Counted from the stretch's first letter, positions 1 to 9,588 are shown. The stretch is 64,000 nt of DNA from Patescibacteria group bacterium (GCA_041658665.1 JBAZZR010000003.1:4125-68124); one strand, 5' to 3'. The notes: generated from the sequence alone by a model not told the origin. Numbers and translations are program-made.

Positions 1-393
1 GGCGTAAAAGTCGGATATTACAGCCAAGATTTTTCTACTTTAAATTTCGAAGAAATAGTTTTTGATTCCTTAAAAAATATAGCAGACGGTTTAGACGAAC
101 CGGAAATACGTTCCATCGCCGCCGGTTTTCTAATCGCGGGCGATTTAATGGGGCATAAAATAGCTGATTTATCAGAGGGACAAAAAGGCTTGCTATCTTT
201 TGCTCACTTAGTCTTAAAACGACCGGGACTTCTAATTTTAGACGAACCGACCAACCATATTAATTTCCGCCATCTCCCGATTCTGGCTCAAGCCATTAAT
301 AATTACGCTGGAGCAATTATTATGGTTAGCCACATGCCGGAATTCGTGGAAAAAATCCGCTTTACCGAAGAGTTAGATTTAGGCAAGTTTTAA
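1..393 (+). CDS. ABC-F type ATPase, C-terminal fragment (5' end outside window)
   Basis: Frame 1 is open from nt 1 (GVKVGYYSQDF...) and runs into the listed 148..393 ORF. Signature-like LSEGQK, Walker B LLILDEPTNH and H-loop MVSH are present. No TM segment. Confidence 0.75.
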   Translation, partial: GVKVGYYSQDFSTLNFEEIVFDSLKNIADGLDEPEIRSIAAGFLIAGDLMGHKIADLSEGQKGLLSFAHLVLKRPGLLILDEPTNHINFRHLPILAQAINNYAGAIIMVSHMPEFVEKIRFTEELDLGKF

Positions 394-402
394 TTTTTTT
401 TT

Positions 403-1776
403 ATGACCAATCATCCGAAACTTACTCATTCGACAAATCATAATAACGCCCAAGAAGCCCCGCAAAAATTTTCTGATTTAGGTATCAGTGAATCAATTTT
501 AGAAATTTTAAAAAAACTTAATTTAGATATTCCCACCCCCATTCAGCGCAAAACCATTCCTATTGCTATCGCTGGTCAAGATTTAATTGGCGTCGCACAA
601 ACGGGAACCGGAAAGACTTTTGCTTTTGGCATTCCGATGCTCCAGCGTTTAGGCGCCACCAAGAAACAAGGATTAATTATTGCTCCGACTCGCGAGCTTG
701 CCTTACAAGTTGAAGAAAGTTTAAAAAAACTCGGCCAAGCTTTAGGGCTAAGAACGGCGCTTTTAATCGGCGGCGAAGCTTTAGACCGCCAACTTTTTTC
801 TCTTCGCAAAAGACCGCATATTATCGTCGCCACTCCCGGACGACTGATCGACCACCTTAAACGCCGAACTTTTAAATTAGATCAAATTAATACCCTAGTG
901 TTGGATGAGGCGGATATGATGCTGGACTTAGGTTTTGCCCCGCAAATTCAAGAAATTCTAAAACAGGCGCCGCCCGAGCGTCAAACTATGCTATTTTCGG
1001 CTACCATGCCAGCGGCAATCGTTAAAATCGCCGCTAATTACATGAAATTACCAGTCAGTATTGAGGTAGCGCCGTCAGGCACGACCGCTTCTCAAGTTGA
1101 TCAAGAAATATTCATTATTAAAGGTGAAGAACGTTTTGAGCATCTCCAGAAAGTTCTTAGCCATTACGCTGGCTCGGTTCTCGTCTTTGTTCGAACTAAG
1201 CACGGCGTTAAAGCTCTAACGCTTAAACTGTGCTCGCTGGGTCATAGAGCGGTAGAGATTCATTCCAACCTATCTTTAAGCCGTCGACGCGCCGCCTTGA
1301 ATGACTTTAAGTCTAAAAAAGAGCGTATTCTAGTAGCCACTGATGTGGCCGCGCGTGGCCTAGATATTAATGCGATTGAATTAGTAGTTAACTATAATTT
1401 ACCAGATAATTCTGAGGATTATGTTCATCGAATCGGCCGAACCGGACGAGCGGGACAAGTAGGCAAAGCGATTACCTTCGCGACCTCTAACGAACAAAAA
1501 GAAATTTACGCTATTGAAAAATTGATTAATAAAAATATTAAACGAACCGAATTTGTAAAATTTTCTAGAGAATCATCCCTCGCGCCAACCAACCAAAAAA
1601 ATAAAAAATCATTTAGAGGAAACCCAAGAGGAAACCGACGTCATAATTTCAGCGGTGCGAGTGCTCCTGCGACTGCGCCGACCGCCGACCGCCGTCAGCC
1701 TGGTTTTTCAGGAAGAACGGGGAAGTATAAACAGTCTTCGCCCCGAAAATTTTCCCGCCGAACTTTTTCTCGGTAA
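403..1776 (+). CDS. DEAD-box ATP-dependent RNA helicase with basic R/G/S-rich C-terminal tail
   Basis: Q-motif PTPIQ, Walker A AQTGTGKT, LDEADMML (DEAD), SAT, ARGLD and HRIGRTGR motifs, all in canonical order. Confidence 0.9.
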   Translation: MTNHPKLTHSTNHNNAQEAPQKFSDLGISESILEILKKLNLDIPTPIQRKTIPIAIAGQDLIGVAQTGTGKTFAFGIPMLQRLGATKKQGLIIAPTRELALQVEESLKKLGQALGLRTALLIGGEALDRQLFSLRKRPHIIVATPGRLIDHLKRRTFKLDQINTLVLDEADMMLDLGFAPQIQEILKQAPPERQTMLFSATMPAAIVKIAANYMKLPVSIEVAPSGTTASQVDQEIFIIKGEERFEHLQKVLSHYAGSVLVFVRTKHGVKALTLKLCSLGHRAVEIHSNLSLSRRRAALNDFKSKKERILVATDVAARGLDINAIELVVNYNLPDNSEDYVHRIGRTGRAGQVGKAITFATSNEQKEIYAIEKLINKNIKRTEFVKFSRESSLAPTNQKNKKSFRGNPRGNRRHNFSGASAPATAPTADRRQPGFSGRTGKYKQSSPRKFSRRTFSR

Positions 1777-2029
1777 CAATTCACTCTTGCGCCAAGCTTA
1801 ATTATATATTAAAATCAGTAAAGAAATAAGAGAATACTAGTTATTTTAAAAATCATCCTCAAAACCCTATCAAGGGATATTAGCAATTATTTTTTGAACT
1901 TAAGCTTACTTCGTTAATATCGATTTATTTTCGAAAAATAGTAGAGGAGACCCGGATGGATCTCCTCATTGGATTTAACTCATATTTAGTCCGTAACGAA
2001 TTAAATATCTTGGGGGTGATTTTTAAAAT
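1777..2029 (+). other. 253-nt gene-free leader upstream of the reverse transcriptase (possible structured RNA)
   Basis: No ORF in the track. There is a 7-bp hairpin (gaggaga 1944-1950 / tctcctc 1961-1967, 10-nt loop) and flanking complementary heptamers (ttcgtta 1910-1916 / taacgaa 1994-2000). A near-consensus SD gggggtga (2012-2019) lies 10 nt before the ATG at 2030. Confidence 0.3.
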
Positions 2030-3235
2030 ATGTTTAGTAGAATAATAAGTTATCAGAATATCGAGGCGGCTTATTTAGAAATAATTGAGCAATTCGCGGC
2101 CGACCGACGTAATTTTAGATATCACGGCCTAGATAATATTTTTTTGCACGATCTCGACCTAAAATCTCAAGCAATAATTAAAATTATTCAAACCGACCTC
2201 CAAAAAATTAAAGAAATTGAACCGGCTCTCGCCGTACAAATTCCTAAAAAAAATAAACCGGAGCAATATCGAGAAATTTTTATTTATAACCTTAAGGAGA
2301 GAATAAAGGCGCAAGCTATTTATCGCGTAATCTTACCAATCTTTGAAAATAATTTTTCTGACCGACTTTTTTCTTATCGTCCCGGGAAACCTCCTTATTT
2401 AGCGGCACAGAGCTTTTGTCGTCGCTACCGTCGGGAATTCTCCAAAGATCAGGCTCTCATAATAGATTTAAAAAACTACTCTGATCGGATAAATCGAACG
2501 CTGATGTTTCAGCAGCTGCAAAAAATTATTAGTGACCAAAAAGTTTTAGCGCTTCTCCGTTTATTTATTTTTAATAAAGTCTATCGCCAAGGAAAATACA
2601 CTGATCCCGCCCAGGGACTAGTGCAGGGCGTCCCTTTAATCGCTCTTCTCGCTAACTTATATTTAACGGACTTAGATTTTAAATATCAAACTAAGTCCGC
2701 TTTTTATGTACGGGTTGGCGATGATTTGGCTTTTTTAGATCCCGCTCTCGATAAACTCCAAAAAATACTAGCGACCCTCGCCAACGATTTAACGGCCCGG
2801 GGACTAGAACTTAACCAACAAAAATTATTTTTAGGCGCGGCTCGCGACCAATATTCTTTTTTAGGCTATAATTTCAAAGCCGGACTTATTAGTTTAGAGC
2901 CGGTATTTATTAAAAGGACGATCGCCGACTGGCAAAGAATTTTGACTTATAAAAACGCGCCGCCTGACGCCAAATTAAATTTACTAAGCCGAATAATGAG
3001 CAAGCCAGAAAATAATTTTAACCGACAATTTCAAAAAATAGTAAAAGACAAGTCCCAAATTAATAATTCGGCGCAAATTAAAAAAATATCGGAAAATTTC
3101 TTTGCCATTTTAACTAAGTTTATTTACAAACATTACTCGCCAAGAAATCGCCGGTTATTAGAAGAGAAATTAAAAAATATAAAAATAATGTCTTTATACA
3201 GTATATATAAAAAATTCCATTATGATCGAAATTAA
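2030..3235 (+). CDS. Free-standing reverse transcriptase (RT palm/fingers plus about 120-aa helical C-terminal region)
   Basis: RT motifs in order: IPKKNKPEQYREI (1-2), FSYRPGKPPYLA (3), LIIDLKNYSDRI (4), GLVQGVPLIALLANLYL (5), YVRVGDDLAF (motif C, VGDD at 2714-2725), GLELNQQK (6), FLGYNF (7). No maturase X, endonuclease, DGR SQ or retron VTG motif seen. Confidence 0.85.
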   Translation: MFSRIISYQNIEAAYLEIIEQFAADRRNFRYHGLDNIFLHDLDLKSQAIIKIIQTDLQKIKEIEPALAVQIPKKNKPEQYREIFIYNLKERIKAQAIYRVILPIFENNFSDRLFSYRPGKPPYLAAQSFCRRYRREFSKDQALIIDLKNYSDRINRTLMFQQLQKIISDQKVLALLRLFIFNKVYRQGKYTDPAQGLVQGVPLIALLANLYLTDLDFKYQTKSAFYVRVGDDLAFLDPALDKLQKILATLANDLTARGLELNQQKLFLGAARDQYSFLGYNFKAGLISLEPVFIKRTIADWQRILTYKNAPPDAKLNLLSRIMSKPENNFNRQFQKIVKDKSQINNSAQIKKISENFFAILTKFIYKHYSPRNRRLLEEKLKNIKIMSLYSIYKKFHYDRN

Positions 3236-4940
3236 GGAACAAGTGCGGCTGTTAAAAAAAATTAGAATCAATCGTCATAAACAAGCGACAACCGCCAACT
3301 CGGTCTTACAGTATAATTATTTACTAATGTTTTTTAAAAAACATCAACTAATTATACTAGGCACTATCCTCCTTTTACTAACCCAAGGGATTATTGAAAC
3401 ATCTCTAGTTTTTATTAGTAAAAACCAACTAACTTTTAGCAGCCCAAACATAACTAGTTCTTTTTTTTGGTGGTTATTTATCACTTTTTTCCTTATTTTT
3501 CTGGTTAATTCCTTTGTCGCCATTAGACAGGAAAAGACCGTAGTCGTTCTTTTTATTAATAGTCTTCGCCGACGAATTTTTAAAAATTATCTTGGTAAAT
3601 CATTAAACGGCATGAAAGCAGAGGCCCAAGCCGCTTTAATCGCTAAAATTTCCTACCACCTACCTCTAGTATCCCTAGGCATATCCAATTCATTATTTGG
3701 CTTTATTCGCTGGCTAATCTATTTAACTTCCGCCGTGGTCGTCGCTTCTTTCGCTGGTTTAAATATCTTAGTTATTTTAATAAGCTTTTTATTATTGTCG
3801 ATTATGATCGCCGTCCCCGCCTACTTTATCGCTCAACGCTATATTTCTCAAGAAGTTACTTTCTACTCTCAAATTATTAAATTAATTGATTTAAGCGCCT
3901 CGGAAAAATATTTTCTCAAAAGTTTTAATTTAGAAACAACCACCCTAAAAAAATTCGATCGCCTAGTAGATTTTGACTCTATTTTTCGAATTCGACGAGA
4001 TTTATGGATGAAAATGGGCTTTAAAATAGTCTTCGCTCTTCTTCTGATTATCTCTGTTTTAATTCATCTTTTTCAAAATAATATTACGGCCACTATTAAT
4101 TTAATAAGTCCGGAATTAAAATTTCTCTACGCCTTTCTTCTAATTTATTTATCGCGGGTCGCGACGGAAGCCCTCCGCATCGGTCTTTACTTTTTTCCTG
4201 GTCAATTAGGGTTATCCCTCACTATTACTCCCCAAGGAAAATATCTTCATCGGGCTAACCGCGTCGATATTAAAAAAGAGATTACTTTCTATAGCCGCAA
4301 AATTAAATTATTTAAAACCGGTCGTTATTATCGAAAATTAAGTTTTGACTTTTTAAGAGGCGGCCGCTATCTATTTTATGGTGCTAATCTTTCGGGCAAA
4401 ACCACCTTGGCTAAATTATTCTGGGGTAGCGAGGCTTACCAGTCTAAAGCACTAAAAATAAAAATAGACGGCCACCGTCTAAATTTTTCCGACTATCAGC
4501 GCTTATTTAATAGAGGCTATTTTTTCCAACCCAATTTTTATTCACAAAAAAGCTTGCTAGAATTAATTCTTGGTTTAGACCGAGAAGCCACTGATTTTTC
4601 AGAAATTGACCGCGCTTTAAAAATTATCGCCGCCTATCCATCGTTAGTAGAACTGGTCTCAACTGATAATAACTTTAGCTTAGCGGCCGATAAAATCTGG
4701 AACAACCCCGCAGCAGCCTTTGCCCTACATTCTTTACACTGTCTGGTCAACCGCCCCTCCCTCATTATTATTGATAATCTCTGGCTAGACCTAAATTATC
4801 CCGCTATCAATAAAATACTAAAAATCATCAGCCAAGAACTGCCCGAAGTAATTTTAATTATTTTCGCTAGCCAGGATATTAATCATTTAACTTATAACAA
4901 CCGCTATGACTTGGATAAAAATTTTGAGACAAAAGACTAA
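3222..4940 (+). CDS. ABC exporter-like membrane protein (6 predicted TM helices plus nucleotide-binding domain with degenerate catalytic motifs)
   Basis: Start overlaps the RT stop by 14 nt. Six hydrophobic helices lie in the N-terminal about 330 aa. Walker A GANLSGKT (4380-4403) is intact. The signature is replaced by FSLAA. Walker B reads LIIIDN (Asp 4773-4775, then Asn instead of the catalytic Glu). No H-loop His is seen in IIFASQD. Confidence 0.7.
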   Translation: MIEIKEQVRLLKKIRINRHKQATTANSVLQYNYLLMFFKKHQLIILGTILLLLTQGIIETSLVFISKNQLTFSSPNITSSFFWWLFITFFLIFLVNSFVAIRQEKTVVVLFINSLRRRIFKNYLGKSLNGMKAEAQAALIAKISYHLPLVSLGISNSLFGFIRWLIYLTSAVVVASFAGLNILVILISFLLLSIMIAVPAYFIAQRYISQEVTFYSQIIKLIDLSASEKYFLKSFNLETTTLKKFDRLVDFDSIFRIRRDLWMKMGFKIVFALLLIISVLIHLFQNNITATINLISPELKFLYAFLLIYLSRVATEALRIGLYFFPGQLGLSLTITPQGKYLHRANRVDIKKEITFYSRKIKLFKTGRYYRKLSFDFLRGGRYLFYGANLSGKTTLAKLFWGSEAYQSKALKIKIDGHRLNFSDYQRLFNRGYFFQPNFYSQKSLLELILGLDREATDFSEIDRALKIIAAYPSLVELVSTDNNFSLAADKIWNNPAAAFALHSLHCLVNRPSLIIIDNLWLDLNYPAINKILKIISQELPEVILIIFASQDINHLTYNNRYDLDKNFETKD

Positions 4941-6120
4941 AAAGGGGGATGGCCGTAATTGGCTAGCCCTACTTATTTTTTTCGGACTACCCCTAGTGTT
5001 ACTCATCGGCGGTTTATCTTTAGGCGTAAAATTCTTGCCTTTCTACCAAAAAGCAAAAAATATAATTTTAGAACCGGCCCAAATAATAGAAATTAGCGAA
5101 CCATTTTCTGGTAATTTATATTTTAATGATGAACTCGGCATAGATAACTTTTCCAGCCTAATTATTGCTAACCTCGATACCGCTAAATATAAAATTGAGC
5201 TAGCTATGTATTCCATGGATAGCGCGACTATTGCCGACGCTCTCTATCGCGCCGCCGATCGAGGCGTACTAATTAACTTAATTTTTAGTGATAAACACCA
5301 AGCAATAATTAATAAATTATTTAAAAATCCTCATCAAAATATTACAATTAATTTCCGTAGTTCTGATTTAGGATATATGCATCACAAATTTCTCTTAATT
5401 GATCGCCAGACAACCGCCCCTAAACTATTTTTTAGTTCTTATAATTTCACGAATATCCAAGGGAAATATGATCCTAGTTTTATTTTAGAGACTAGCCGGC
5501 CGGAGTTAGTGGATATTTTTGGACAAGAGTTTGGACGTTTAGCCGCAGGCCAACACGGCGAAGCAAAAAAAGCGACGACTAGTAATCCCTTCGCTGCTCT
5601 AATAAAGTACCCCGAGGGTTTTCTAGAAATTTGGTTCTCGCCGGGAACGGCTCAAAAAAACGTTAAACGCCGTATGTTAAATTTAATTAAAGACTCAAAA
5701 AGTAATATCAAAGTCATGATCTGGACTTTGACCGATAAAGAGATCGCCGCGGCCTTAGTCGCCGCCGCCCAAAAATTACCAGTTAATATTATTACTGATG
5801 ATTCTAATTGGTCGGTGGACAATTCTGTTTTTCCGATTTTAGCGGCGCAGAAAGAAAGACAAAATTTAAATAATCTAGAAATAATTACCGACAGTAAAAA
5901 TAGTGAAGGAATAAATAAACTATATACCGGCAATAGTCTTAATTCGTTCTTGCATCATCATCTGATGATTATTGATGACCAAACCGTGATTTTTGGCACT
6001 AATAATTGGAGCTACAACGGTTTTTCAAAAAACAATGAATCAATCATGATTTCTAATATAGCAAGCCTCACTAGCGCTTTTGAACAATCATACTCAACTA
6101 ACTATAATAAAAATAAATAA
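4906..6120 (+). CDS. Membrane-anchored phospholipase D (HKD) superfamily protein
   Basis: Start overlaps the upstream stop by 35 nt. A basic N-terminus is followed by one TM helix (WLALLIFFGLPLVLLIGGLSLGV). First motif is HHKFLLID (HxKxxxxD, 5380-5403) followed by SSYNFT. Second motif is HHHLMIID (HxHxxxxD, 5953-5976) followed by GTNNWS. Confidence 0.8.
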   Translation: MTWIKILRQKTKKGDGRNWLALLIFFGLPLVLLIGGLSLGVKFLPFYQKAKNIILEPAQIIEISEPFSGNLYFNDELGIDNFSSLIIANLDTAKYKIELAMYSMDSATIADALYRAADRGVLINLIFSDKHQAIINKLFKNPHQNITINFRSSDLGYMHHKFLLIDRQTTAPKLFFSSYNFTNIQGKYDPSFILETSRPELVDIFGQEFGRLAAGQHGEAKKATTSNPFAALIKYPEGFLEIWFSPGTAQKNVKRRMLNLIKDSKSNIKVMIWTLTDKEIAAALVAAAQKLPVNIITDDSNWSVDNSVFPILAAQKERQNLNNLEIITDSKNSEGINKLYTGNSLNSFLHHHLMIIDDQTVIFGTNNWSYNGFSKNNESIMISNIASLTSAFEQSYSTNYNKNK

Positions 6121-6270
6121 TTTGACTATTCTTATATCTTTAATTTGAAGAAAACAGCCTAAATACGCGTAATAATCAGGCCAGGATTAATAAAATCACC
6201 GATTAAACAGGAATAATTATAAATAAAATTTATTATTTATCTTATTTTTGTGCTATTATATTAAGATAAT

Positions 6271-7401
6271 ATGCCAAAATACCAATATATAATCGAAAAT
6301 AACGATACCCGTCCGGATCAGACTCTCATAATAACGCTTAAGCCCAAGACCAATAAAGATATCTTTAATTTTCAGCCCGGTCAATATGCGATGTTATCTT
6401 TTTATGACAAGGCCGGTAAATTTTTCATCAATCATCCTTTTTCTATCGCCAGTTCACCGACGCAAAAAAATTATTTAAAATTTGGCATAAAAATAATCGG
6501 CCAATTTACACAAAATTTAAAGAATCTCGCTCCTGGGAATAAGGTCGAAGTTTTAGGTCCTTTCGGTAATTTTATTTTTGATGAAACTAAATATCCCGTT
6601 GCCGTATTTATAGCAGGCGGGGTAGGAATAACGCCATTTATGAGCGCTATTAATTACGCGACTGATCGAAACTTGTCCAACCAAATATTCTTATTATATA
6701 GTAACCGGACTATTGCCGGCACTCTTTTTTATGAGGAGATTAAAAAATTAGCCGCTCAAAATCCTCATTTTCATCCTCAACTAAAAATTACTCAAGAACC
6801 AATTAATAATCTTAGTTATTGTGAAAACGGCTATATCACTAAAGAAACAATCACGAAAAATATTCAAGAGCTAGATCATAAAGATTTTTTCCTTTGCGGA
6901 CCGGGACAGTTTATGAAAACGATGGAAAAAAATTTAATTGAACTGGGTGTCCCTAACCACAAAATTCATCAAGAAGCTTTTAATGCTACTCCGAACCTAT
7001 CCCTACGAGAAAATGCTAAAAATATCTCCCTAGTTTACGGCCTGACAGTTGTCTTATTTATTTTTTTTCTAAACTTTATTCAACCCGCTAAAATTAGTTC
7101 GGCAAACGAGTCGGCTAAAATTTTCGAGCCAGCTCCAATTAATCTGATTAACAATGCCGTAAATAATCGGCGCAATGACATTATCAGCTCTAAAAAGTTA
7201 TTGCTTAGCACTATTAGCTCTCTCCTGACTAAAAATATAAATACCAATACTAAACCTACCGCTGGATCAGCGCCAATAACTCAGCCCGCTAAAACTAATC
7301 CCGCGCCCATTATTCAACCCGTTAAAATAGCGACACCAATTATTAAGACCCCGGCTCAAAATCGCGCTCCCGTCGTAACGCCAAGAACTAGGGTCTCTTA
7401 A
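6271..7401 (+). CDS. NOX/ferric-reductase-type FAD/NAD(P)H-binding dehydrogenase domain protein with C-terminal TM helix and P/T/A-rich tail
   Basis: FAD motif HPFSIASSP (from 6433), NAD(P)-binding GGVGITPF and FLCGPG motif. A hydrophobic helix (LVYGLTVVLFIFFLNFI) is followed by a proline/threonine/alanine-rich tail. Confidence 0.7.
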   Translation: MPKYQYIIENNDTRPDQTLIITLKPKTNKDIFNFQPGQYAMLSFYDKAGKFFINHPFSIASSPTQKNYLKFGIKIIGQFTQNLKNLAPGNKVEVLGPFGNFIFDETKYPVAVFIAGGVGITPFMSAINYATDRNLSNQIFLLYSNRTIAGTLFYEEIKKLAAQNPHFHPQLKITQEPINNLSYCENGYITKETITKNIQELDHKDFFLCGPGQFMKTMEKNLIELGVPNHKIHQEAFNATPNLSLRENAKNISLVYGLTVVLFIFFLNFIQPAKISSANESAKIFEPAPINLINNAVNNRRNDIISSKKLLLSTISSLLTKNINTNTKPTAGSAPITQPAKTNPAPIIQPVKIATPIIKTPAQNRAPVVTPRTRVS

Positions 7402-7414
7402 TTATTAAAATATT

Positions 7415-7801
7415 ATGAAAAAAATTAAAAAAATATCAACTTCATTATTACTAATTTTTTTATTCGCGCTGACGAGTCAGCCGATATTAGCTGAAGATGA
7501 TGACTATGACGATTACGAAGAAAATAATTACAGAGAAAATAATGACGATCGGCCAGAAGTAATTTCCGCCGTTGAGGAGACCTCGGCCCCGGTAACACCA
7601 CGAGTATCGACGATTGATGCCCCCGCCGCGACTGGCTTTCTGCCCACAGTAAACATTACTAATAGTTTAATTGATTCCGATCAAGACGGAATCATTGATA
7701 TTTTAGATACTCATCCCGGTGAGGACGACTTTGCCTTTAGGATTCAAGACGCTAATAAAAATGGCCTGATTGATGATTTAGAATATTTAATGAACAAATA
7801 A
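7415..7801 (+). CDS. Small secreted acidic protein with a pair of EF-hand/dockerin-like Ca-binding loops
   Basis: Signal peptide MKKIKKISTSLLLIFLFALTSQPILA, an acidic D/E/Y run, then two 12-residue loops (DSDQDGIIDILD and DANKNGLIDDLE) matching DxDxDGxIxxxD/E. Confidence 0.55.
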   Translation: MKKIKKISTSLLLIFLFALTSQPILAEDDDYDDYEENNYRENNDDRPEVISAVEETSAPVTPRVSTIDAPAATGFLPTVNITNSLIDSDQDGIIDILDTHPGEDDFAFRIQDANKNGLIDDLEYLMNK

Positions 7802-7807
7802 TCTAAT

Positions 7808-8749
7808 ATGCAGGCCTATAAAAAAATCCAGGCTCTGGGCACCGAAGTAGAATTTTATTTACAATCTGATTTAAAAATTGACTTAGAGCCAGATTTTTTA
7901 GAACTCAGCCTCTTAATTGATAAATTTGATCAACTATTTAACCGTTTTTCGGCGAGTAGCGAACTAAGTCGATTAAATAAAGCTACAAATAATTTCCAGG
8001 CTAACCCCGAATTAACTAAAATTCTACTAGTAGCCAAAGACTTTTATAATTTAACGGGCGGAATCTTTGACCCTACTATTTTACGAACTTTAGAAGAGCA
8101 GGGATATGACCGAAGCTTTGATTCTTTAGATTTAGGTGGTTCTAACGAACTAATAGAACGCCGACCAAAAACGATTGATTTTAAACAAATAATAATTAAC
8201 GCCGAGAACAATTTTATTACCAAGCCCCCCGAGCTTAAAATAGATTTAGGGGGAATCGGTAAAGGGTATATCGTTGATAAACTCGTTAAACATCTAAAGG
8301 ACAAAGGATATAAAAATTTTTGGATTTCGGCTGGCGGAGACATGTATCTCAGTGGTTTAACGGCCGACGGACAAACTTATCAAATCGGCGTTCAAAACCC
8401 CTTAAAAATCGCTAGCGATTTATTTAATATCGCAATGACGGCTCAAGAGCTGGCGGTCGCCACTTCAGGAATCGCGAAAAGACAATGGTCGGATAAACAC
8501 GGCCACCGCTTTAATCATTTAATTGATCCGCGAACCAGATCTTCGGTAAATAATGGTCTGCTCGCCGCGACGGTTATTTCTGATCAAGTAGTGAAGGCGG
8601 ATATTTATGCTAAAACAATCTTAATTTTAGGAGAAAAAGAGGGAATTAGTTTCATTGACCAGCAAGAAAATAGCGAAGCTCTCATTATCGATCGGAATTT
8701 AAAAGTTAGTTTGTCAAAAAATATGAATAAATATTTAACAAAAATCTAA
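7808..8749 (+). CDS. apbE: FAD:protein FMN transferase (ApbE family)
   Basis: ApbE-like motifs FDPT, DLGGIGKGY, ISAGGD, VATSGI and HLIDPRT. About 310 aa, typical of the family. Confidence 0.8.
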   Translation: MQAYKKIQALGTEVEFYLQSDLKIDLEPDFLELSLLIDKFDQLFNRFSASSELSRLNKATNNFQANPELTKILLVAKDFYNLTGGIFDPTILRTLEEQGYDRSFDSLDLGGSNELIERRPKTIDFKQIIINAENNFITKPPELKIDLGGIGKGYIVDKLVKHLKDKGYKNFWISAGGDMYLSGLTADGQTYQIGVQNPLKIASDLFNIAMTAQELAVATSGIAKRQWSDKHGHRFNHLIDPRTRSSVNNGLLAATVISDQVVKADIYAKTILILGEKEGISFIDQQENSEALIIDRNLKVSLSKNMNKYLTKI

Positions 8750-9588
8750 TGTTTAAAACTAATAAATTATTGATCGTGACGATCACCTTAATTTTCTTCA
8801 GTAATTTTTTCTTACCGGCGACTCTACTAGCGGAAAATGTCATTTATGCTACCTCGGCTAAAGACAGTGATTACGACGGCTTAACTGATCAGGGTGAAAT
8901 TCAAATTTATAAAACAAATCCACAAAATCCCGATTCTGATAGTGACTCCTATTTAGACGGCGCCGAAATTTTAGCCGGCACTAATCCTTTAGATCCAAAC
9001 AGCCCCCAAATAGTCTCCACCACCGATCTTAATTTAAGTAAGACTAGCGTTCCGGCGACTAGTCTTTGGCCTTGGTTCGTGGCGCGTGCTTCTGGTATAG
9101 TTAGCTACCTTCTCCTTTTTTTACTAATAGTTTCTGGTAGCGGCATAAAAACTTCATCATTATTTCGTTTAGTGAGTCCAACGACGGCTTGGTTAAATCA
9201 CCGCTATTTAGGAATCGCTTTGACATTTTCGACGTTGATTCATTTGGGCTCACTTTTGACTGATAATTTTTTAAAATTTACTGTTATTGATATCCTAGTC
9301 CCCTTCATTTCTAGTTTTAAACCTTTATATTTATCGCTAGGCATCATCGGTTTTTATCTGTTTTTAGCCATAATTATTTTCTCGATCTTTTATATGAATA
9401 AACTCCCTAAAATCTGGCGCGTGCTTCATTATTTAACCTATCCCGCCTTTATTATCCTCTTCATTCATGGCTATTTTATCGGTACCGACACAACGACAAA
9501 TTTAATGCAGTTAATCTATCTGACCACGGGGATTATAGTCGCCTTACAATTTTCTTATCGTCTATATTTTTCCTATAAACAACACTAA
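8749..9588 (+). CDS. Ferric-reductase-like (NOX/MsrQ superfamily) di-heme transmembrane domain protein with N-terminal extracellular thrombospondin-type-3-like Ca-binding repeats
   Basis: The ATG shares one nt with the apbE stop (taATG). Signal/anchor, then DSDYDGLTDQGE and NPDSDSDSYLDGAEILAGTNPLDPNS. TM helices carry His pairs spaced 14 residues (His codons at 9199 and 9241) and 13 residues (9427 and 9466). Confidence 0.7.
   Translation: MFKTNKLLIVTITLIFFSNFFLPATLLAENVIYATSAKDSDYDGLTDQGEIQIYKTNPQNPDSDSDSYLDGAEILAGTNPLDPNSPQIVSTTDLNLSKTSVPATSLWPWFVARASGIVSYLLLFLLIVSGSGIKTSSLFRLVSPTTAWLNHRYLGIALTFSTLIHLGSLLTDNFLKFTVIDILVPFISSFKPLYLSLGIIGFYLFLAIIIFSIFYMNKLPKIWRVLHYLTYPAFIILFIHGYFIGTDTTTNLMQLIYLTTGIIVALQFSYRLYFSYKQH

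What the first reader, a model, noticed from the sequence alone, without database searches (positions are those of the whole stretch)
1777..6120. Translationally coupled cassette: free-standing reverse transcriptase + degenerate ABC-exporter-like protein + membrane-anchored PLD enzyme
SEEN:
- Three + strand ORFs are chained by overlaps. The RT stop at 3235 overlaps the next start at 3222 by 14 nt. That ORF's stop at 4940 overlaps the next start at 4906 by 35 nt.
- Neither downstream start has its own SD. The first ORF has a near-consensus SD (gggggtga 2012-2019) after a 253-nt gene-free leader.
- ORF1 carries RT motifs 1-7 and an extra helical tail of about 120 aa. It has no maturase or endonuclease domain. 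There is no room for intron RNA downstream because the next gene overlaps. It lacks the DGR-type SQ motif and the retron VTG motif.
- ORF2 is a 6-TM ABC-exporter fold that keeps only Walker A.
- ORF3 is an N-terminally anchored two-HKD PLD-family protein.

ESTABLISHED: Free-standing RTs in operons with ATPase, transmembrane or nuclease/PLD-fold partners are the architecture of defence-associated RTs (retron effector modules, DRT and UG/Abi classes). PLD-fold proteins recur as nuclease or phospholipase effectors.

INFERENCE: The trio is a candidate RT-driven, membrane-associated module (anti-phage/abortive infection, or envelope or extracellular nucleic-acid processing). I cannot match this composition to a described type.

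CAVEAT: The basic N-terminus of ORF3 predicts the PLD domain faces outward. That fits a secreted nuclease or lipid enzyme better than a cytoplasmic effector.
Basis: partly seen in the sequence, partly recalled or inferred. Interest (0 to 1): 0.85.

Follow-up and report, generated by a model that had tools for sequence, protein, structure and literature searches.

The report
RT, structured RNA, pseudo-ABC, surface PLD

Summary
Three + strand ORFs overlap by 14 and 35 nt: RT 2030-3235, ABC-like 3222-4940, PLD 4906-6120. This order recurs in every complete locus among about 60 fetched, with RT identity from 94% down to 32%, in changing flanks, and twice in four genomes.

The 253-nt "leader" is a conserved structured RNA of about 190 nt (1840-2035):
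- It has five helices plus a pseudoknot.
- 92.6% of cells are paired, against about 40% when partners are slid.
- 40 of 44 pairs show compensatory changes.
- It has no Rfam match.
- Its closing helix contains the supposed SD.

The proteins:
- **RT:** a discrete clade in the group II intron-like lineage. It is catalytically intact but has VGDD and Ser/Thr at the steric-gate position.
- **ORF2:** folds like MsbA-type exporters but lacks the catalytic Glu, signature motif and H-loop.
- **ORF3:** a PLD3/4-, Zucchini- and Nuc-like two-lobed PLD (HKD plus HHD), anchored N-in so the enzyme faces outward.

It is not a group II intron, retron, DGR or listed DRT type. The most likely reading is a new RT-ncRNA system with a trans-membrane effector pair. 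Defence is the best guess (about 0.4), but the flanks show no defence-island signal. Nucleic-acid export or uptake remains a serious rival.

The parts
1840..2035 (+). Conserved structured leader RNA of about 190 nt. It has five helices (P1-P5) plus a pseudoknot, and runs into the RT start codon.
   Evidence: - MFE -58.6 kcal/mol, z = -5.86.
- RNAalifold: 31 of 39 pairs compensatory.
- Covariance model R1 scores 163.5 bits here, with only one hit in the 64-kb window.
- 92.6% of cells paired against 36-44% when slid; 0 of 500 shuffles reach the observed values.
- No Rfam family matches.
1842..1862 (+). P1 5' strand of the closing helix. It pairs with 2010-2030.
   Evidence: - Inverted repeat I2: 21 nt, 90% complementary.
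- All 8 core pairs show changes on both sides (helix 1).
2010..2030 (+). P1 3' strand. It contains the putative SD (GGGGGUGA, 2012-2019) and reaches the A of the RT start codon, so folding sequesters the ribosome-binding site.
   Evidence: -.
- The same SD-in-P1 layout appears in the divergent clade, for example L046 AUAUCCUAGC/GCUAGGAUAU.
1877..1883 (+). Pseudoknot 5' strand (AUAUUAG) in the junction between P2 and P3.
   Evidence: - Pairs with the P3 apical loop.
- Not part of the CM structure, yet 94.9% paired with 6 of 7 pairs covarying, e.g. AUAUUAG/UUAAUAU against AUGCCGG/UCGGCAU (helix 3).
1886..1942 (+). P3 long hairpin. Its 7-nt apical loop (UUAAUAU, 1914-1920) forms the pseudoknot.
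   Evidence: Helices 4-6 are 89-97% paired, and 15 of their 16 pairs show changes on both sides.
1944..1967 (+). P4, a hairpin of variable length whose 3' strand ends in a conserved CCUC.
   Evidence: Alignments. Its length varies from about 20 nt to more than 100 nt between loci.
1968..1981 (+). Conserved single-stranded junction (AUUGGAUUUAACUC). Candidate RT-binding or template segment (inference).
   Evidence: Sequence conservation. The divergent clade has GACUCAUUGUCAAUAAA at the same place.
1982..2008 (+). P5 hairpin.
   Evidence: Helix 7: 10 of 11 pairs have changes on both sides, 91.9% paired.
2030..3235 (+). [quoted passage not shown] Catalytic D146 lies at nt 2465-2467 and V-G230-D231-D232 at nt 2714-2725. 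S151 sits at the steric-gate position (nt 2480-2482).
   Evidence: - RVT_1, E = 2e-17.
- Best solved relatives: GsI-IIC RT 4.7e-31 and Cas6-RT-Cas1 1.8e-27.
- Invariant D146, R228, G230, D231, D232.
- A discrete family of about 45-57 clusters at 50% identity.
3222..4940 (+). ABC-exporter-fold half-transporter, 572 aa, with 6 TM helices plus a hydrolysis-dead NBD. Walker A K393 is at nt 4398-4400 and Walker B D518-N519 at nt 4773-4778.
   Evidence: - AF2 model: pLDDT 82, pTM 0.71.
- Foldseek: MsbA, TmrAB, TAP, McjD, PCAT1, HlyB at E of about 4e-14 over about 575 columns.
- Motif loss.
- All 66 homologues found share this length and family, and several lie on contigs that also carry the RT.
4906..6120 (+). 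N-terminally anchored two-lobed PLD-superfamily enzyme, 404 aa. The TM helix is aa 20-38 (nt 4963-5019). Motif 1 (HxKxxxxD) is at nt 5380-5403 and motif 2 (HxHxxxxD) at nt 5953-5976.
   Evidence: - PLDc_2 x2, E = 2e-33.
- Sequence relatives: Zucchini/MitoPLD 6e-7, NucT 1.6e-6, Nuc 1.8e-4.
- AF2 pLDDT 90.3.
- Foldseek: a bacterial PLD (7e0m) 5e-20, PLD3/PLD4 about 1e-16, vaccinia F13.
- Charge bias indicates N-in topology.

Best explanation
This is an undescribed four-component reverse-transcriptase system specific to Patescibacteria (CPR). It is one transcription unit made of (i) a pseudoknotted leader RNA of about 190 nt, (ii) a catalytically intact group II intron-like RT, (iii) an ABC-exporter-fold membrane protein that can probably bind but not hydrolyse nucleotide, and (iv) a membrane-anchored PLD nuclease-like enzyme whose catalytic domain faces outside.

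**Proposed mechanism**
1. *Shown:* the leader folds into P1-P5 plus a pseudoknot.
2. *Shown as structure; regulation inferred by analogy with LtrA binding DIVa:* its long closing helix buries the ribosome-binding site. Folding or RT binding would therefore throttle translation of the RT. Because ORF2 and ORF3 overlap the preceding gene and have no SD of their own, it would throttle all three proteins together.
3. *Inferred from retrons and the Class 2 DRTs DRT2, DRT9 and DRT10:* the RT uses this RNA as its scaffold and template or primer to make a defined nucleic-acid product.
4. *Inferred:* the RT-RNA(-product) particle docks on the cytoplasmic face of the pseudo-ABC dimer. Lacking an ATPase cycle, the dimer acts as a gated conduit or switch rather than a pump, with the PLD sitting on its outer face.
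5. *Inferred, least certain:* the biological output is anti-phage defence of the abortive or exclusion type. Phage perturbation of the RT product would switch the membrane pair on.
For: **Module**
- The RT-ABC-PLD order is invariant in all fetched loci with enough sequence, down to 32% RT identity.
- The frames overlap.
- The most divergent PLD homologues found (35% and 27% identity) still sit in the same arrangement: a full triad for the first, and an ABC-PLD pair on a short 2.8-kb contig for the second.
- No ORF2 or ORF3 relative was seen outside the cassette.
- Flanks differ between loci, and four genomes carry two paralogous cassettes.

**RNA**
- An ORF-free gap of at least 180 nt precedes the RT in nearly every locus.
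- Covariation supports 44 pairs, including a pseudoknot that was not in the search model.
- Model R1 finds the RNA next to the RT in 36 further loci at E < 0.1, many of them outside the seed alignment.
- The divergent clade shows the same layout.
- L008 carries an extra stand-alone copy with its own terminator. It differs from the RT-linked copy by compensatory P1 changes.
- L010 keeps an intact RNA detached from the RT. Both cases argue that it works as an RNA, not only as a cis leader.

**RT**
- The catalytic Asp residues are invariant.
- The closest relatives are group II intron, CRISPR-RT and other G2L-type RTs.
- It also matches ncRNA-using Class 2 UG models: UG26, UG17, UG27 and Drt9.

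**Effector pair**
- The PLD matches DrmC defence nuclease models at 2.8e-19.

**Prior (own knowledge)**
- Almost all characterised free-standing RT-plus-ncRNA systems with linked effectors are anti-phage.

**Distribution**
- Only 50 loci in 46 genomes turned up among 185,579 species representatives. This looks patchy and accessory, although the scan used a single peptide pattern and may undercount.
Against: - **No defence-island signal.** The 150 nearest-neighbour ORFs give only generic helicase and ABC-ATPase PADLOC matches. Recurrent neighbours are pilins, T2SSE, ECF sigma factors and cupredoxin-like proteins. In the window itself the neighbours are housekeeping genes.
- **Awkward topology for a defence effector.** An outward-facing nuclease cannot reach cytoplasmic phage DNA.
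- **No sign of mobility.** The cassette is nearly absent from viral contigs (1 of 2.9 million) and absent from phage records, and it shows no GC anomaly.
- **No product or template identified.** Conservation in the RNA is mostly structural.
- **A cis-regulatory reading is not excluded.** The RNA could be a purely cis-regulatory leader of the riboswitch or autoregulatory kind.
- **Nothing here was tested experimentally.** CPR bacteria are largely uncultured.
Confidence: 0.4

Rival explanations
1. **Trans-envelope nucleic-acid handling, not immunity.** The RT-RNA particle synthesises a strand that is handed to or through the pseudo-ABC conduit and is cut or trimmed outside by the PLD nuclease (secretion of a templated nucleic acid). 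Alternatively the machine works inward, as part of DNA uptake and nucleotide scavenging alongside type IV pili and the competence machinery.
For: - The three proteins are laid out cytoplasm, membrane, outside.
- The PLD's nearest sequence relatives are nucleases, including NucT. Its nearest folds include PLD3 and PLD4, solved in complex with ssDNA.
- Pilin-like genes lie within 7 kb in 11 of 46 loci and are immediately upstream in 5. T2SSE ATPases flank 4 loci.
- Membrane-anchored MBL proteins flank 3 loci. I take them to be ComEC-like from their sequence, but this was not tested.
- In L010 two pilin genes sit between the RNA and the RT.
- There are no defence genes in the flanks.
- CPR bacteria depend on imported nucleotides and DNA (own knowledge).
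Against: - Type IV ABC exporter folds are not known to conduct polynucleotides.
- Pilin genes are numerous in CPR genomes, so proximity may be chance, and no background rate was measured.
- The patchy distribution (about 46 genomes) is odd for a core uptake function.
- No role for an RT in DNA uptake is known.
Confidence: 0.25
2. **Lipid or envelope remodelling.** An MsbA-like flippase-type protein and a PLD phospholipid enzyme act together, for example to acquire or remodel host lipids. The leader RNA would be a cis-regulatory element of the riboswitch or autoregulatory type, and the RT a co-opted regulator or RNA chaperone.
For: - The best fold hits of ORF2 are the lipid flippases MsbA and PglK.
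- The best fold hit of ORF3 is a bacterial phospholipase D (7e0m). PLD1, PLD2 and F13 also match.
- Sequestering the SD in P1 is the classic design of a translational riboswitch.
- CPR bacteria lack lipid biosynthesis (own knowledge).
Against: - It does not explain why a catalytically intact RT is invariably and translationally coupled to the pair.
- The ATPase needed for flipping is dead.
- At sequence level the PLD is closer to the nucleases Zucchini, NucT, Nuc and DrmC.
- L008 and L010 show the RNA maintained apart from the RT start, which a pure cis-regulator would not need.
Confidence: 0.12
3. **Remnant or unusual form of a mobile retroelement.** This would be a degenerate group II intron, retron or DGR whose neighbours are incidental cargo.
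For: - RT core similarity to group II intron RTs: TIGR04416 2.5e-36, and LtrA at about 28-30% identity.
- A structured RNA with a long closing helix upstream of the RT is reminiscent of the retron a1/a2 arrangement.
Against: - There are no group II intron domains anywhere in the window, even at E < 5 around the cassette.
- ORF2 overlaps the RT stop, so there is no room for domains V and VI.
- TIGR04416 scores 126 bits against a cut-off of 300, and no GIIM or endonuclease domain is detected.
- Similarity to retron RTs is weak (7e-6).
- There are no TR/VR-type repeats.
- Copy number is one per 64-kb window, and two divergent paralogues at most in the genomes seen.
- The neighbours are not incidental, because they are invariant across about 60 loci.
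Confidence: 0.04

Closest known systems
Group II intron-like (G2L) free-standing RTs, e.g. G2L4; CRISPR-associated RTs
   Same: - The RT fingers and palm are closest to group II intron and CRISPR RTs: GsI-IIC 4.7e-31, Cas6-RT-Cas1 1.8e-27.
- It has the FLGY-type motif 7.
- No intron RNA is present.
- The nearest out-groups in the 1.84-billion-protein search are RT-Cas1, RT-TPR-AEP and double-RT proteins carrying GIIM.
   Different: - It forms its own discrete clade with a family-specific C-terminal tail of about 115 aa.
- It has VGDD instead of YADD or YIDD, and Ser/Thr at the steric-gate position.
- It has an obligatory structured RNA and two membrane partners, whereas G2L4 acts alone in DNA repair.
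- The match to the G2L4 structure is only 1.2e-9.
Class 2 UG/Abi defence RTs with an upstream ncRNA (DRT2/UG2, DRT9/UG28, DRT10/UG17); best named PADLOC model RT_UG26
   Same: - It is a small single-domain RT of about 400 aa preceded by a structured ncRNA of about 200 nt on the same strand.
- It gives moderate HMM matches to UG26 (2.4e-32), UG4, UG17, UG27 and Drt9.
- G2L3 was itself reclassified as UG17, so the border between the two lineages is fuzzy (PMC8632793).
   Different: - The matches cover mainly the RT core, and the group II model scores higher.
- The partner genes are unlike any listed. UG26 pairs with a Vsr-like nuclease and UG17 with SLATT, and the paper contains no mention of ABC or PLD (PMC9226505).
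- The RNA matches no Rfam family.
- It is restricted to CPR bacteria. UG38, the CPR group of that paper, is not among the 25 best of 34 PADLOC matches listed.
- Defence function is untested.
Retrons (msr-msd RNA + RT + effector)
   Same: - The gene order is ncRNA, RT, then effector(s).
- The RNA is closed by a long terminal helix, like a1/a2.
- Effectors can be membrane proteins.
   Different: - RT similarity is weak (Ec86 7e-6).
- Reading the sequence, the retron VTG motif is absent where motif 7 reads FLGY; I saw no NAxxH motif, though I did not search for it.
- The RNA has a pseudoknot and five helices rather than the msr/msd layout.
- No conserved branching G next to the closing helix is evident.
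Type IV (MsbA/Sav1866-type) ABC exporters; degenerate sites of heterodimeric exporters (TmrAB, TM287/288)
   Same: It has the full-length 6-TM plus NBD half-transporter fold, a Walker A Lys and a Walker B Asp.
   Different: - As a presumed homodimer, both ATP sites would be degenerate: Glu replaced by Asn, and no signature motif, Q-loop or H-loop His.
- Sequence identity to any solved exporter is only 12-17%.
- It was found only inside this cassette.
Nuc/NucT/Zucchini nucleases and PLD3/PLD4 (type II membrane-anchored 5' exonucleases)
   Same: - It is a PLD-superfamily enzyme with both catalytic His residues retained.
- It has an N-terminal membrane anchor with the catalytic domain on the non-cytoplasmic side, as in PLD3/4.
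- It is a two-lobed pseudo-dimer.
   Different: - The second motif is HxH, not HxK.
- It is a fusion of two Nuc-like halves rather than a homodimer.
- The substrate, nucleic acid or lipid, is unknown.
- It is translationally coupled to an RT and a pseudo-ABC protein.

Membership tests
Mobile group II intron | Ribozyme domains (I-VI, especially V/VI) flanking the RT ORF | tested here: not met
   There are no Rfam hits in the window at gathering thresholds, and no group II family at E < 5 in 1-8000. ORF2 overlaps the RT stop codon.
Mobile group II intron | Intron-encoded protein with RT plus maturase (X/GIIM), with or without D/En domains, reaching the TIGR04416 cut-off | tested here: not met
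   TIGR04416 scores 125.6 bits against a cut-off of 300 and aligns only aa 31-284. No GIIM or HNH domain is found at E <= 1.
Group II intron-like (G2L) RT lineage (broad sense) | RT domain most similar to group II intron RTs, with no intron RNA | tested here: met
   The best solved and annotated relatives are group II, CRISPR and G2L-type RTs. No intron RNA is present. No phylogenetic tree was built.
G2L4 DNA-repair RT | Close sequence relationship to G2L4, a YIDD active site, and a stand-alone gene | tested here: not met
   The match to the G2L4 structure is only 1.2e-9 over aa 194-306. The motif is VGDD. The gene is always in a three-gene cassette.
Retron | Retron-type RT | tested here: not met
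   Ec86 RT matches at 7.4e-6 only. Motif 7 reads FLGY. PADLOC retron RT models are not among the listed best hits.
Retron | msr-msd RNA producing branched msDNA | not testable with these tools
   An upstream structured RNA with a closing helix exists, but whether any cDNA is made needs experiment.
Diversity-generating retroelement | Template and variable repeat pair near the RT | tested here: not met
   There are no direct repeats longer than 33 nt in 1-9000.
UG/Abi Class 2 DRT (UG26 as best named model) | RT assigned to a UG group by its HMM over its full length | tested here: inconclusive
   RT_UG26 scores 2.4e-32 and 110 bits, covering profile positions 46-289 of 398. The group II model scores higher. 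No phylogeny with UG reference sequences was possible.
UG/Abi Class 2 DRT | Associated genes of the group (UG26: Vsr-like nuclease; UG17: SLATT) | tested here: not met
   The partners here are an ABC-like protein and a PLD. PMC9226505 contains no mention of ABC or PLD.
UG/Abi Class 2 DRT | Demonstrated anti-phage activity | not testable with these tools
   This needs phage challenge. Context gives no defence-island support.
ABC transporter (type IV exporter) | 6-TM domain plus NBD fold | tested here: met
   AF2 pLDDT 82. Foldseek matches MsbA, TmrAB, TAP and others at E of about 4e-14 over about 575 columns.
ABC transporter (type IV exporter) | Catalytic ATPase motifs (Walker B Glu, LSGGQ signature, H-loop His, Q-loop) | tested here: not met
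   D518-N519 replaces D-E. There is no signature motif, H-loop His or Q-loop Gln in 27 homologues. Pfam ABC_tran scores 23.2 bits, below the cut-off of 25.
PLD superfamily (HKD enzymes) | Two HxK(x)4D(x)6G(S/T)xN motifs forming one active site | tested here: inconclusive
   Motif 1 is complete. Motif 2 keeps His, Asp and GTxN but has an invariant His in place of Lys. The fold is confidently PLD. Activity and substrate are untested.
Known RNA families (Rfam 15) | Match to a curated covariance model | tested here: not met
   There are no matches at gathering score in the window and no credible match at E < 5 in 1-8000.

The most novel reading that the evidence does not exclude
The cassette is a polymerisation-driven nucleic-acid secretion machine. 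The RT-like polymerase copies its pseudoknotted leader RNA and threads the nascent strand through the hydrolysis-dead ABC-exporter-like dimer, so that chain growth replaces the ATPase cycle. The outward-facing PLD3/4- or Zucchini-like nuclease then trims or releases the strand at the cell surface of an episymbiotic bacterium.

A sharper version follows from two features of the family: an invariant xGDD motif, and Ser/Thr at the position of the steric-gate aromatic that is reported as present in all RTs. On that reading the enzyme may incorporate ribonucleotides, which would make it a cellular RNA-templated RNA polymerase of RT ancestry.
Probability: 0.1. Interest if true: 0.97.

Novelty: new variant of a known kind. 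Interest (0 to 1): 0.8.

Why it matters
- **A new partner set for domesticated RTs.** Domesticated bacterial RTs with dedicated non-coding RNAs (retrons, DRT2, DRT9, DRT10) have recently produced unexpected biochemistry and genome-engineering tools. This cassette adds a previously unnoticed RNA family, with a covariation-supported pseudoknot, and a partner set not reported for any RT: a trans-membrane arrangement of cytoplasmic polymerase, ATPase-dead ABC exporter fold and ecto-PLD.
- **An uncharacterised host group.** It is confined to CPR/Patescibacteria, whose biology is largely unknown (episymbiosis, dependence on imported nucleotides and lipids, few recognised defence systems).
- **If it is a defence system,** it is a new architecture found in a phylum where immunity is poorly charted.
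- **If it is not,** it may connect reverse transcription to traffic of nucleic acids across the envelope.
- **The RT's unusual active site** (VGDD, no aromatic at the steric gate) makes its substrate specificity a directly testable question.

Tried and rejected
- **Rfam.** The whole window at gathering thresholds and 1-8000 at E < 5 gave nothing credible, so there are no group II domains, retron RNAs or RT-associated motifs.
- **DGR.** There are no TR/VR-like repeats.
- **Mobile element or phage origin.**
  - One hit in 2.9 million viral contigs (L059; the RT sits at the contig end and the content upstream was not analysed further).
  - No ORF2 match in 50,697 phage records.
  - In plasmids only group II intron RTs match, and none is full length.
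  - No GC anomaly.
- **Defence-island test.** A PADLOC and Pfam census of 150 flanking ORFs gave only generic helicase and ABC-ATPase matches.
- **Metagenome scan with a strict three-box RNA pattern.** It returned only 3 loci. Two are true and both are followed by the RT. One is a chance match inside a transporter gene. The pattern was too narrow to test whether the RNA occurs without the RT.
- **My ad-hoc pseudoknot finder.** It had a 46% false-positive rate on shuffled sequences, so I discarded it as evidence.
- **Promoter and terminator scan.** There is no qualifying sigma-70 hit in the leader. By eye, TTGCGC-17-TAAAAT lies at about 1788-1816 but fails the scan's threshold. There is no + strand terminator between the RNA and the RT.
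- **Reach of model R1.** It does not detect the RNA in the most divergent loci (L041, L048, L051-L054), even with filters off. For those I rely on single-sequence folds and a MAFFT/alifold alignment, which is weaker evidence.
- **Literature.** Three searches found no paper describing this cassette, and three RT papers queried for ABC or PLD terms had no mention. The library excludes most subscription journals, so absence is not proof.

Full report
**1. Observation**

- ORF1 (RT): 2030-3235, 401 aa.
- ORF2 (ABC-like): 3222-4940, 572 aa.
- ORF3 (PLD): 4906-6120, 404 aa.

The overlaps are 14 nt and 35 nt. The upstream gene, a DEAD-box helicase, ends at 1776 and leaves 253 nt free of genes. The string gggggtga lies at 2012-2019. 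Neither internal start has a purine-rich SD.

Pfam gives RVT_1 at 2e-17, a sub-threshold ABC_tran match at 1e-4, and two PLDc_2 domains at 2e-33. The window comes from a 137-kb contig of a Patescibacteria MAG.

**2. The trio is a conserved module**

RT homologues are about 400 aa long. Those carrying a source name are labelled Patescibacteria: Falkowbacteria, Magasanikbacteria and similar.

- In three divergent homologues the RT is followed by proteins of about 570 aa and about 400 aa (the latter a PLD), with overlaps, in quite different flanks.
- A scan of 185,579 species-representative genomes returned 50 loci in 46 genomes.
- tblastn finds all three genes, in the same order and strand, in every locus with enough sequence. 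RT identity runs from 94% down to 32%.
- The reading frames overlap or abut in nearly all loci.
- Four genomes carry two paralogous cassettes, for example HGW-Falkowbacteria-1 with two on one contig.
- Homologue searches with ORF2 (66 hits) and ORF3 (76 hits) returned only proteins of this family's length, several on contigs that also carry the RT.
- The most divergent PLD relatives found (35% and 27% identity) still lie in the same arrangement: a full triad for the first, and an ABC-PLD pair on a 2.8-kb contig for the second.

The refutation condition "ABC-PLD pair widely conserved without RT" is therefore not met, within the sensitivity of these searches.

**3. The leader is a structured RNA, the main new result**

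Nearly every locus has an ORF-free gap of at least 180 nt, typically 250-350 nt, upstream of the RT. This is unusual for these compact genomes. A first alignment showed a 5' box complementary to the "SD" region, and a hairpin with compensatory changes.

- **Single-sequence fold.** Window 1835-2035 folds at -58.6 kcal/mol, z = -5.86. The fold has:
  - a 21-bp closing helix P1 (1842-1862 with 2010-2030; also inverted repeat I2);
  - P2 (1865-1876);
  - a long P3 (1886-1942);
  - a variable P4 (1944-1967);
  - a conserved single-stranded junction (1968-1981);
  - P5 (1982-2008).
- **Seed alignment.** A 13-sequence seed gave an RNAalifold consensus in which 31 of 39 pairs have compensatory changes.
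- **Covariance model R1.**
  - It hits the window once, at 163.5 bits.
  - It hits directly upstream of the RT in 35 other loci at E < 0.1, and 2 kb upstream in L010. Many are outside the seed, for example L040 at 158 bits, L021 at 147, L009 at 116 and L003 at 63.
  - It also hits L059-L061 and, with filters off, L038, L047 and weakly L044.
- **Pair counts on the 31-sequence alignment.**
  - 44 pairs in 7 helices are 92.6% paired, against 36-44% when partners are slid by 1-3 columns.
  - 40 pairs show changes on both sides.
  - No shuffle out of 500 reaches the observed values.
- **Pseudoknot.** It joins AUAUUAG (1877-1883) to the P3 apical loop UUAAUAU (1914-1920).
  - It was not in the CM, so the alignment was not fitted to it.
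  - It is nevertheless 94.9% paired, with 6 of 7 pairs covarying (AUAUUAG/UUAAUAU against AUGCCGG/UCGGCAU).
- **Divergent clade.** R1 does not reach the most divergent loci. Their single-sequence folds and a separate alignment show the same layout with further covariation: P1 CUACUUCUAAAA/UUAGAAGUAG, and pseudoknots GCAUUAA/UAAUGC, GGUAUCG/CGAUACC and GUUAUCA/UGAUAAC.
- **Rfam.** Rfam 15 has no match.

Two consequences follow.

First, the "near-consensus SD" is the 3' strand of P1. The folded RNA therefore hides the ribosome-binding site. In the other clade an extended P1 hides an AGGA in the same way.

Second, the RNA is more than a cis leader.
- L008 has a second, stand-alone copy right after a tRNA-Tyr. 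It is followed by ATGTTTCGCTAG and a terminator hairpin, and it differs from the RT-linked copy by compensatory P1 changes: CACCUCC/GGGGGUG against CAUCCUC/GGGGAUG.
- In L010 an intact RNA is separated from the RT by two pilin genes.

**4. The RT**

The catalytic residues D146 and D231-D232 are invariant in 23 diverse members.

- **Closest solved relatives.** Group II intron RTs (GsI-IIC 4.7e-31) and Cas6-RT-Cas1 (1.8e-27) match best. DRT9, DRT2, G2L4 and retron Ec86 are much weaker.
- **Curated models.** NCBIfam's group II model scores 126 bits, far below its cut-off of 300. The best named PADLOC RT model is UG26 (2.4e-32), followed by other Class 2 UG models, mainly over the RT core.
- **Family size and boundaries.**
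  - A profile search of 1.84 billion representatives shows about 45-57 full-length clusters at 225-560 bits.
  - Scores then drop to RT-domain-only matches at about 125-215 bits.
  - Among ten of these checked against Pfam were RT-Cas1, RT-TPR-AEP (TOTE) and double-RT proteins carrying GIIM.
- **Conclusion.** The family is a discrete clade within the group II intron-like lineage, near the fuzzy border with Class 2 UG RTs. G2L3 was itself reclassified as UG17 (PMC8632793).

Two active-site features are unusual.
- Motif C is [VI]-G-D-D, with invariant Gly.
- In a gapless alignment, GsI-IIC F143 aligns with S151, which is Ser or Thr in all 23 members. F143 is the aromatic said to be "present in all RTs"; it stacks on the dNTP sugar and excludes rNTPs (PMC8363836). 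An aromatic residue sits one position earlier.

**5. ORF2**

- AF2 with 27 homologues gives pLDDT 82 and pTM 0.71.
- Foldseek aligns about 575 columns to MsbA, TmrAB, TAP, McjD, PCAT1, HlyB and PglK at E of about 4e-14 and 12-17% identity.
- The alignment keeps Walker A (K393 invariant) and the Walker B Asp (D518). It has Asn for the catalytic Glu and lacks the signature motif, the Q-loop Gln and the H-loop His.
- As a homodimer it could bind nucleotide but not run an ATPase cycle.

**6. ORF3**

- Motif 1 is a complete HxK(x)4D...N. Motif 2 is HxH(x)4D...GTxN, invariant in 26 members.
- Sequence relatives with solved structures are Zucchini/MitoPLD, NucT, Nuc and FAM83B. NCBIfam and PADLOC give NucT and DrmC.
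- The AF2 model (pLDDT 90.3) matches a bacterial PLD (7e0m), then PLD3/PLD4 (several entries solved with ssDNA) and vaccinia F13.
- There is one N-terminal TM helix (aa 20-38), with net +5 charge before it and about 0 after it. This predicts N-in topology with the catalytic domain outside.
- A nuclease is more likely than a lipid enzyme, but this is not settled.

**7. Context**

- Flanks vary. All-against-all clustering of ORFs within 7 kb of 46 non-redundant loci gave these recurrent neighbours:
  - an anchored protein of about 197 aa directly downstream, in 11-12 loci;
  - pilin-like N_methyl proteins in 11 loci, five of them immediately upstream;
  - large surface proteins;
  - ECF sigma factors with putative anti-sigma partners.
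- A census of the 150 nearest ORFs found no restriction-modification, CRISPR or toxin-antitoxin genes. PADLOC hits are generic helicase and ABC-ATPase matches, plus three MBL proteins. The top Pfam families are cupredoxin-like, AAA_22, sigma-70, N_methyl and T2SSE.
- The window's own neighbours are housekeeping genes.
- The cassette is essentially absent from viral and phage collections and has no GC anomaly.

**8. Interpretation**

*What is shown.* This is a four-part, co-inherited unit: structured RNA, active-looking RT, pseudo-ABC membrane protein and outward PLD. Its expression is structurally coupled through SD sequestration in P1 and through overlapping ORFs without their own SD.

*What is inferred.*
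- The RT binds the RNA and uses it as scaffold or template, as retrons and Class 2 DRTs do.
- The resulting particle communicates with the membrane pair.

*Purpose.*
- **Defence (about 0.4).** I rank it first because of the strong prior for RT-ncRNA-effector systems and the patchy, sometimes duplicated distribution. The lack of defence-island context and the outward nuclease weaken it.
- **Trans-envelope nucleic-acid handling (about 0.25).** This is secretion of an RT product, or a role in uptake with pili and competence genes. It fits the topology and the neighbours.
- **Lipid remodelling with a regulatory RNA (about 0.12).** It does not explain the obligatory active RT.
- **Retroelement remnant (about 0.04).** Largely excluded.

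**9. Comparison with known systems and novelty**

- The cassette fails the membership tests for group II introns, retrons, DGRs and G2L4. The test for UG26 is inconclusive.
- It belongs to the broad G2L lineage and works like the RT-ncRNA-effector systems.
- Neither the partner set nor the RNA is described in the literature or Rfam copy I could search.
- I rate it a new variant of a known kind, of high interest. Mechanism and role remain to be tested.

Noticed in passing
L008:5417-6006: The order is tRNA-Tyr (5417-5501), then a stand-alone copy of the leader RNA (5516-5710, 133 bits), then ATGTTTCGCTAG and a terminator hairpin, then TTGATA-17-TAAAAT, then the RT-linked copy (5819-6006). The two copies differ by compensatory changes in P1. 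This suggests that a free RNA gene is being maintained.
   Followed up: partly
L010:2794-6001: The leader RNA (3802-3990) is separated from the RT (6001) by two tandem type IV pilin-like paralogues (4070-5065 and 5093-5992). A third paralogue lies upstream (2794-3798). This could be a real insertion or an assembly artefact in repeated pilin genes.
   Followed up: partly
window:2465-2482 and 2714-2725 (RT aa 146-151 and 229-232): The RT family has an invariant xGDD instead of Y[AMVI]DD. It has Ser/Thr where the steric-gate aromatic of other RTs aligns. Pfam also gives a weak Bunya_RdRp match at aa 49-112. Relaxed sugar selectivity is possible.
   Followed up: partly
L001+L003 (one 568-kb contig); L017+L042; L037+L044; L051+L052: Four genomes carry two divergent paralogous RNA-RT-ABC-PLD cassettes at different places. 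In the one pair compared directly (L001 and L003), the copies are 60% and 47% identical to the window RT.
   Followed up: partly
e.g. L005:12217-12810, L038:5877-6464, L044:10189-10764: In 11-12 loci of the divergent clade, an N-terminally anchored helical protein of about 197 aa with no Pfam match lies directly downstream of the PLD. It may be a fourth protein component in that clade. The window has no counterpart.
   Followed up: partly
L013:6781-8104 and 4-5 other loci: An ECF-type sigma-70 factor, together with a putative membrane anti-sigma protein, lies just downstream of the cassette in 5-6 loci.
   Followed up: no
L003:6849-7712 (-), L034, L035: A membrane-anchored metallo-beta-lactamase-fold protein is transcribed divergently, immediately upstream of the cassette. 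It matches the PADLOC model RTasMBL (RT-associated MBL) at 1e-23. By eye it looks ComEC-like.
   Followed up: no
P0304, P0306, P0317 (representative-library proteins): The nearest out-group proteins to the RT family include proteins of about 850 aa with two tandem RT domains plus GIIM. RT-TPR-AEP (TOTE-type) and RT-Cas1 fusions are also among them.
   Followed up: partly
window:5311-5341: A 31-nt stretch inside ORF3 resembles the P1 5' strand (71% identity to 1836-1866) and is 79% complementary to the P1 3' strand (2004-2027). It is probably chance in AT-rich sequence.
   Followed up: no
L059 (IMGVR_UViG_3300001866_000229): This is the only viral-collection contig with a family RT (42% identity, with a weak RNA hit at 5750-5990). 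A 1405-aa ORF lies upstream. Whether the contig is really viral was not checked.
   Followed up: no
window:6271-9588: Downstream of the cassette lies a cluster made of an FAD/NAD oxidoreductase with a C-terminal membrane/low-complexity tail, a small acidic secreted protein, ApbE, and a ferric-reductase-like TM protein with TSP3 repeats. This looks like an extracytoplasmic flavinylation or electron-transfer module.
   Followed up: no
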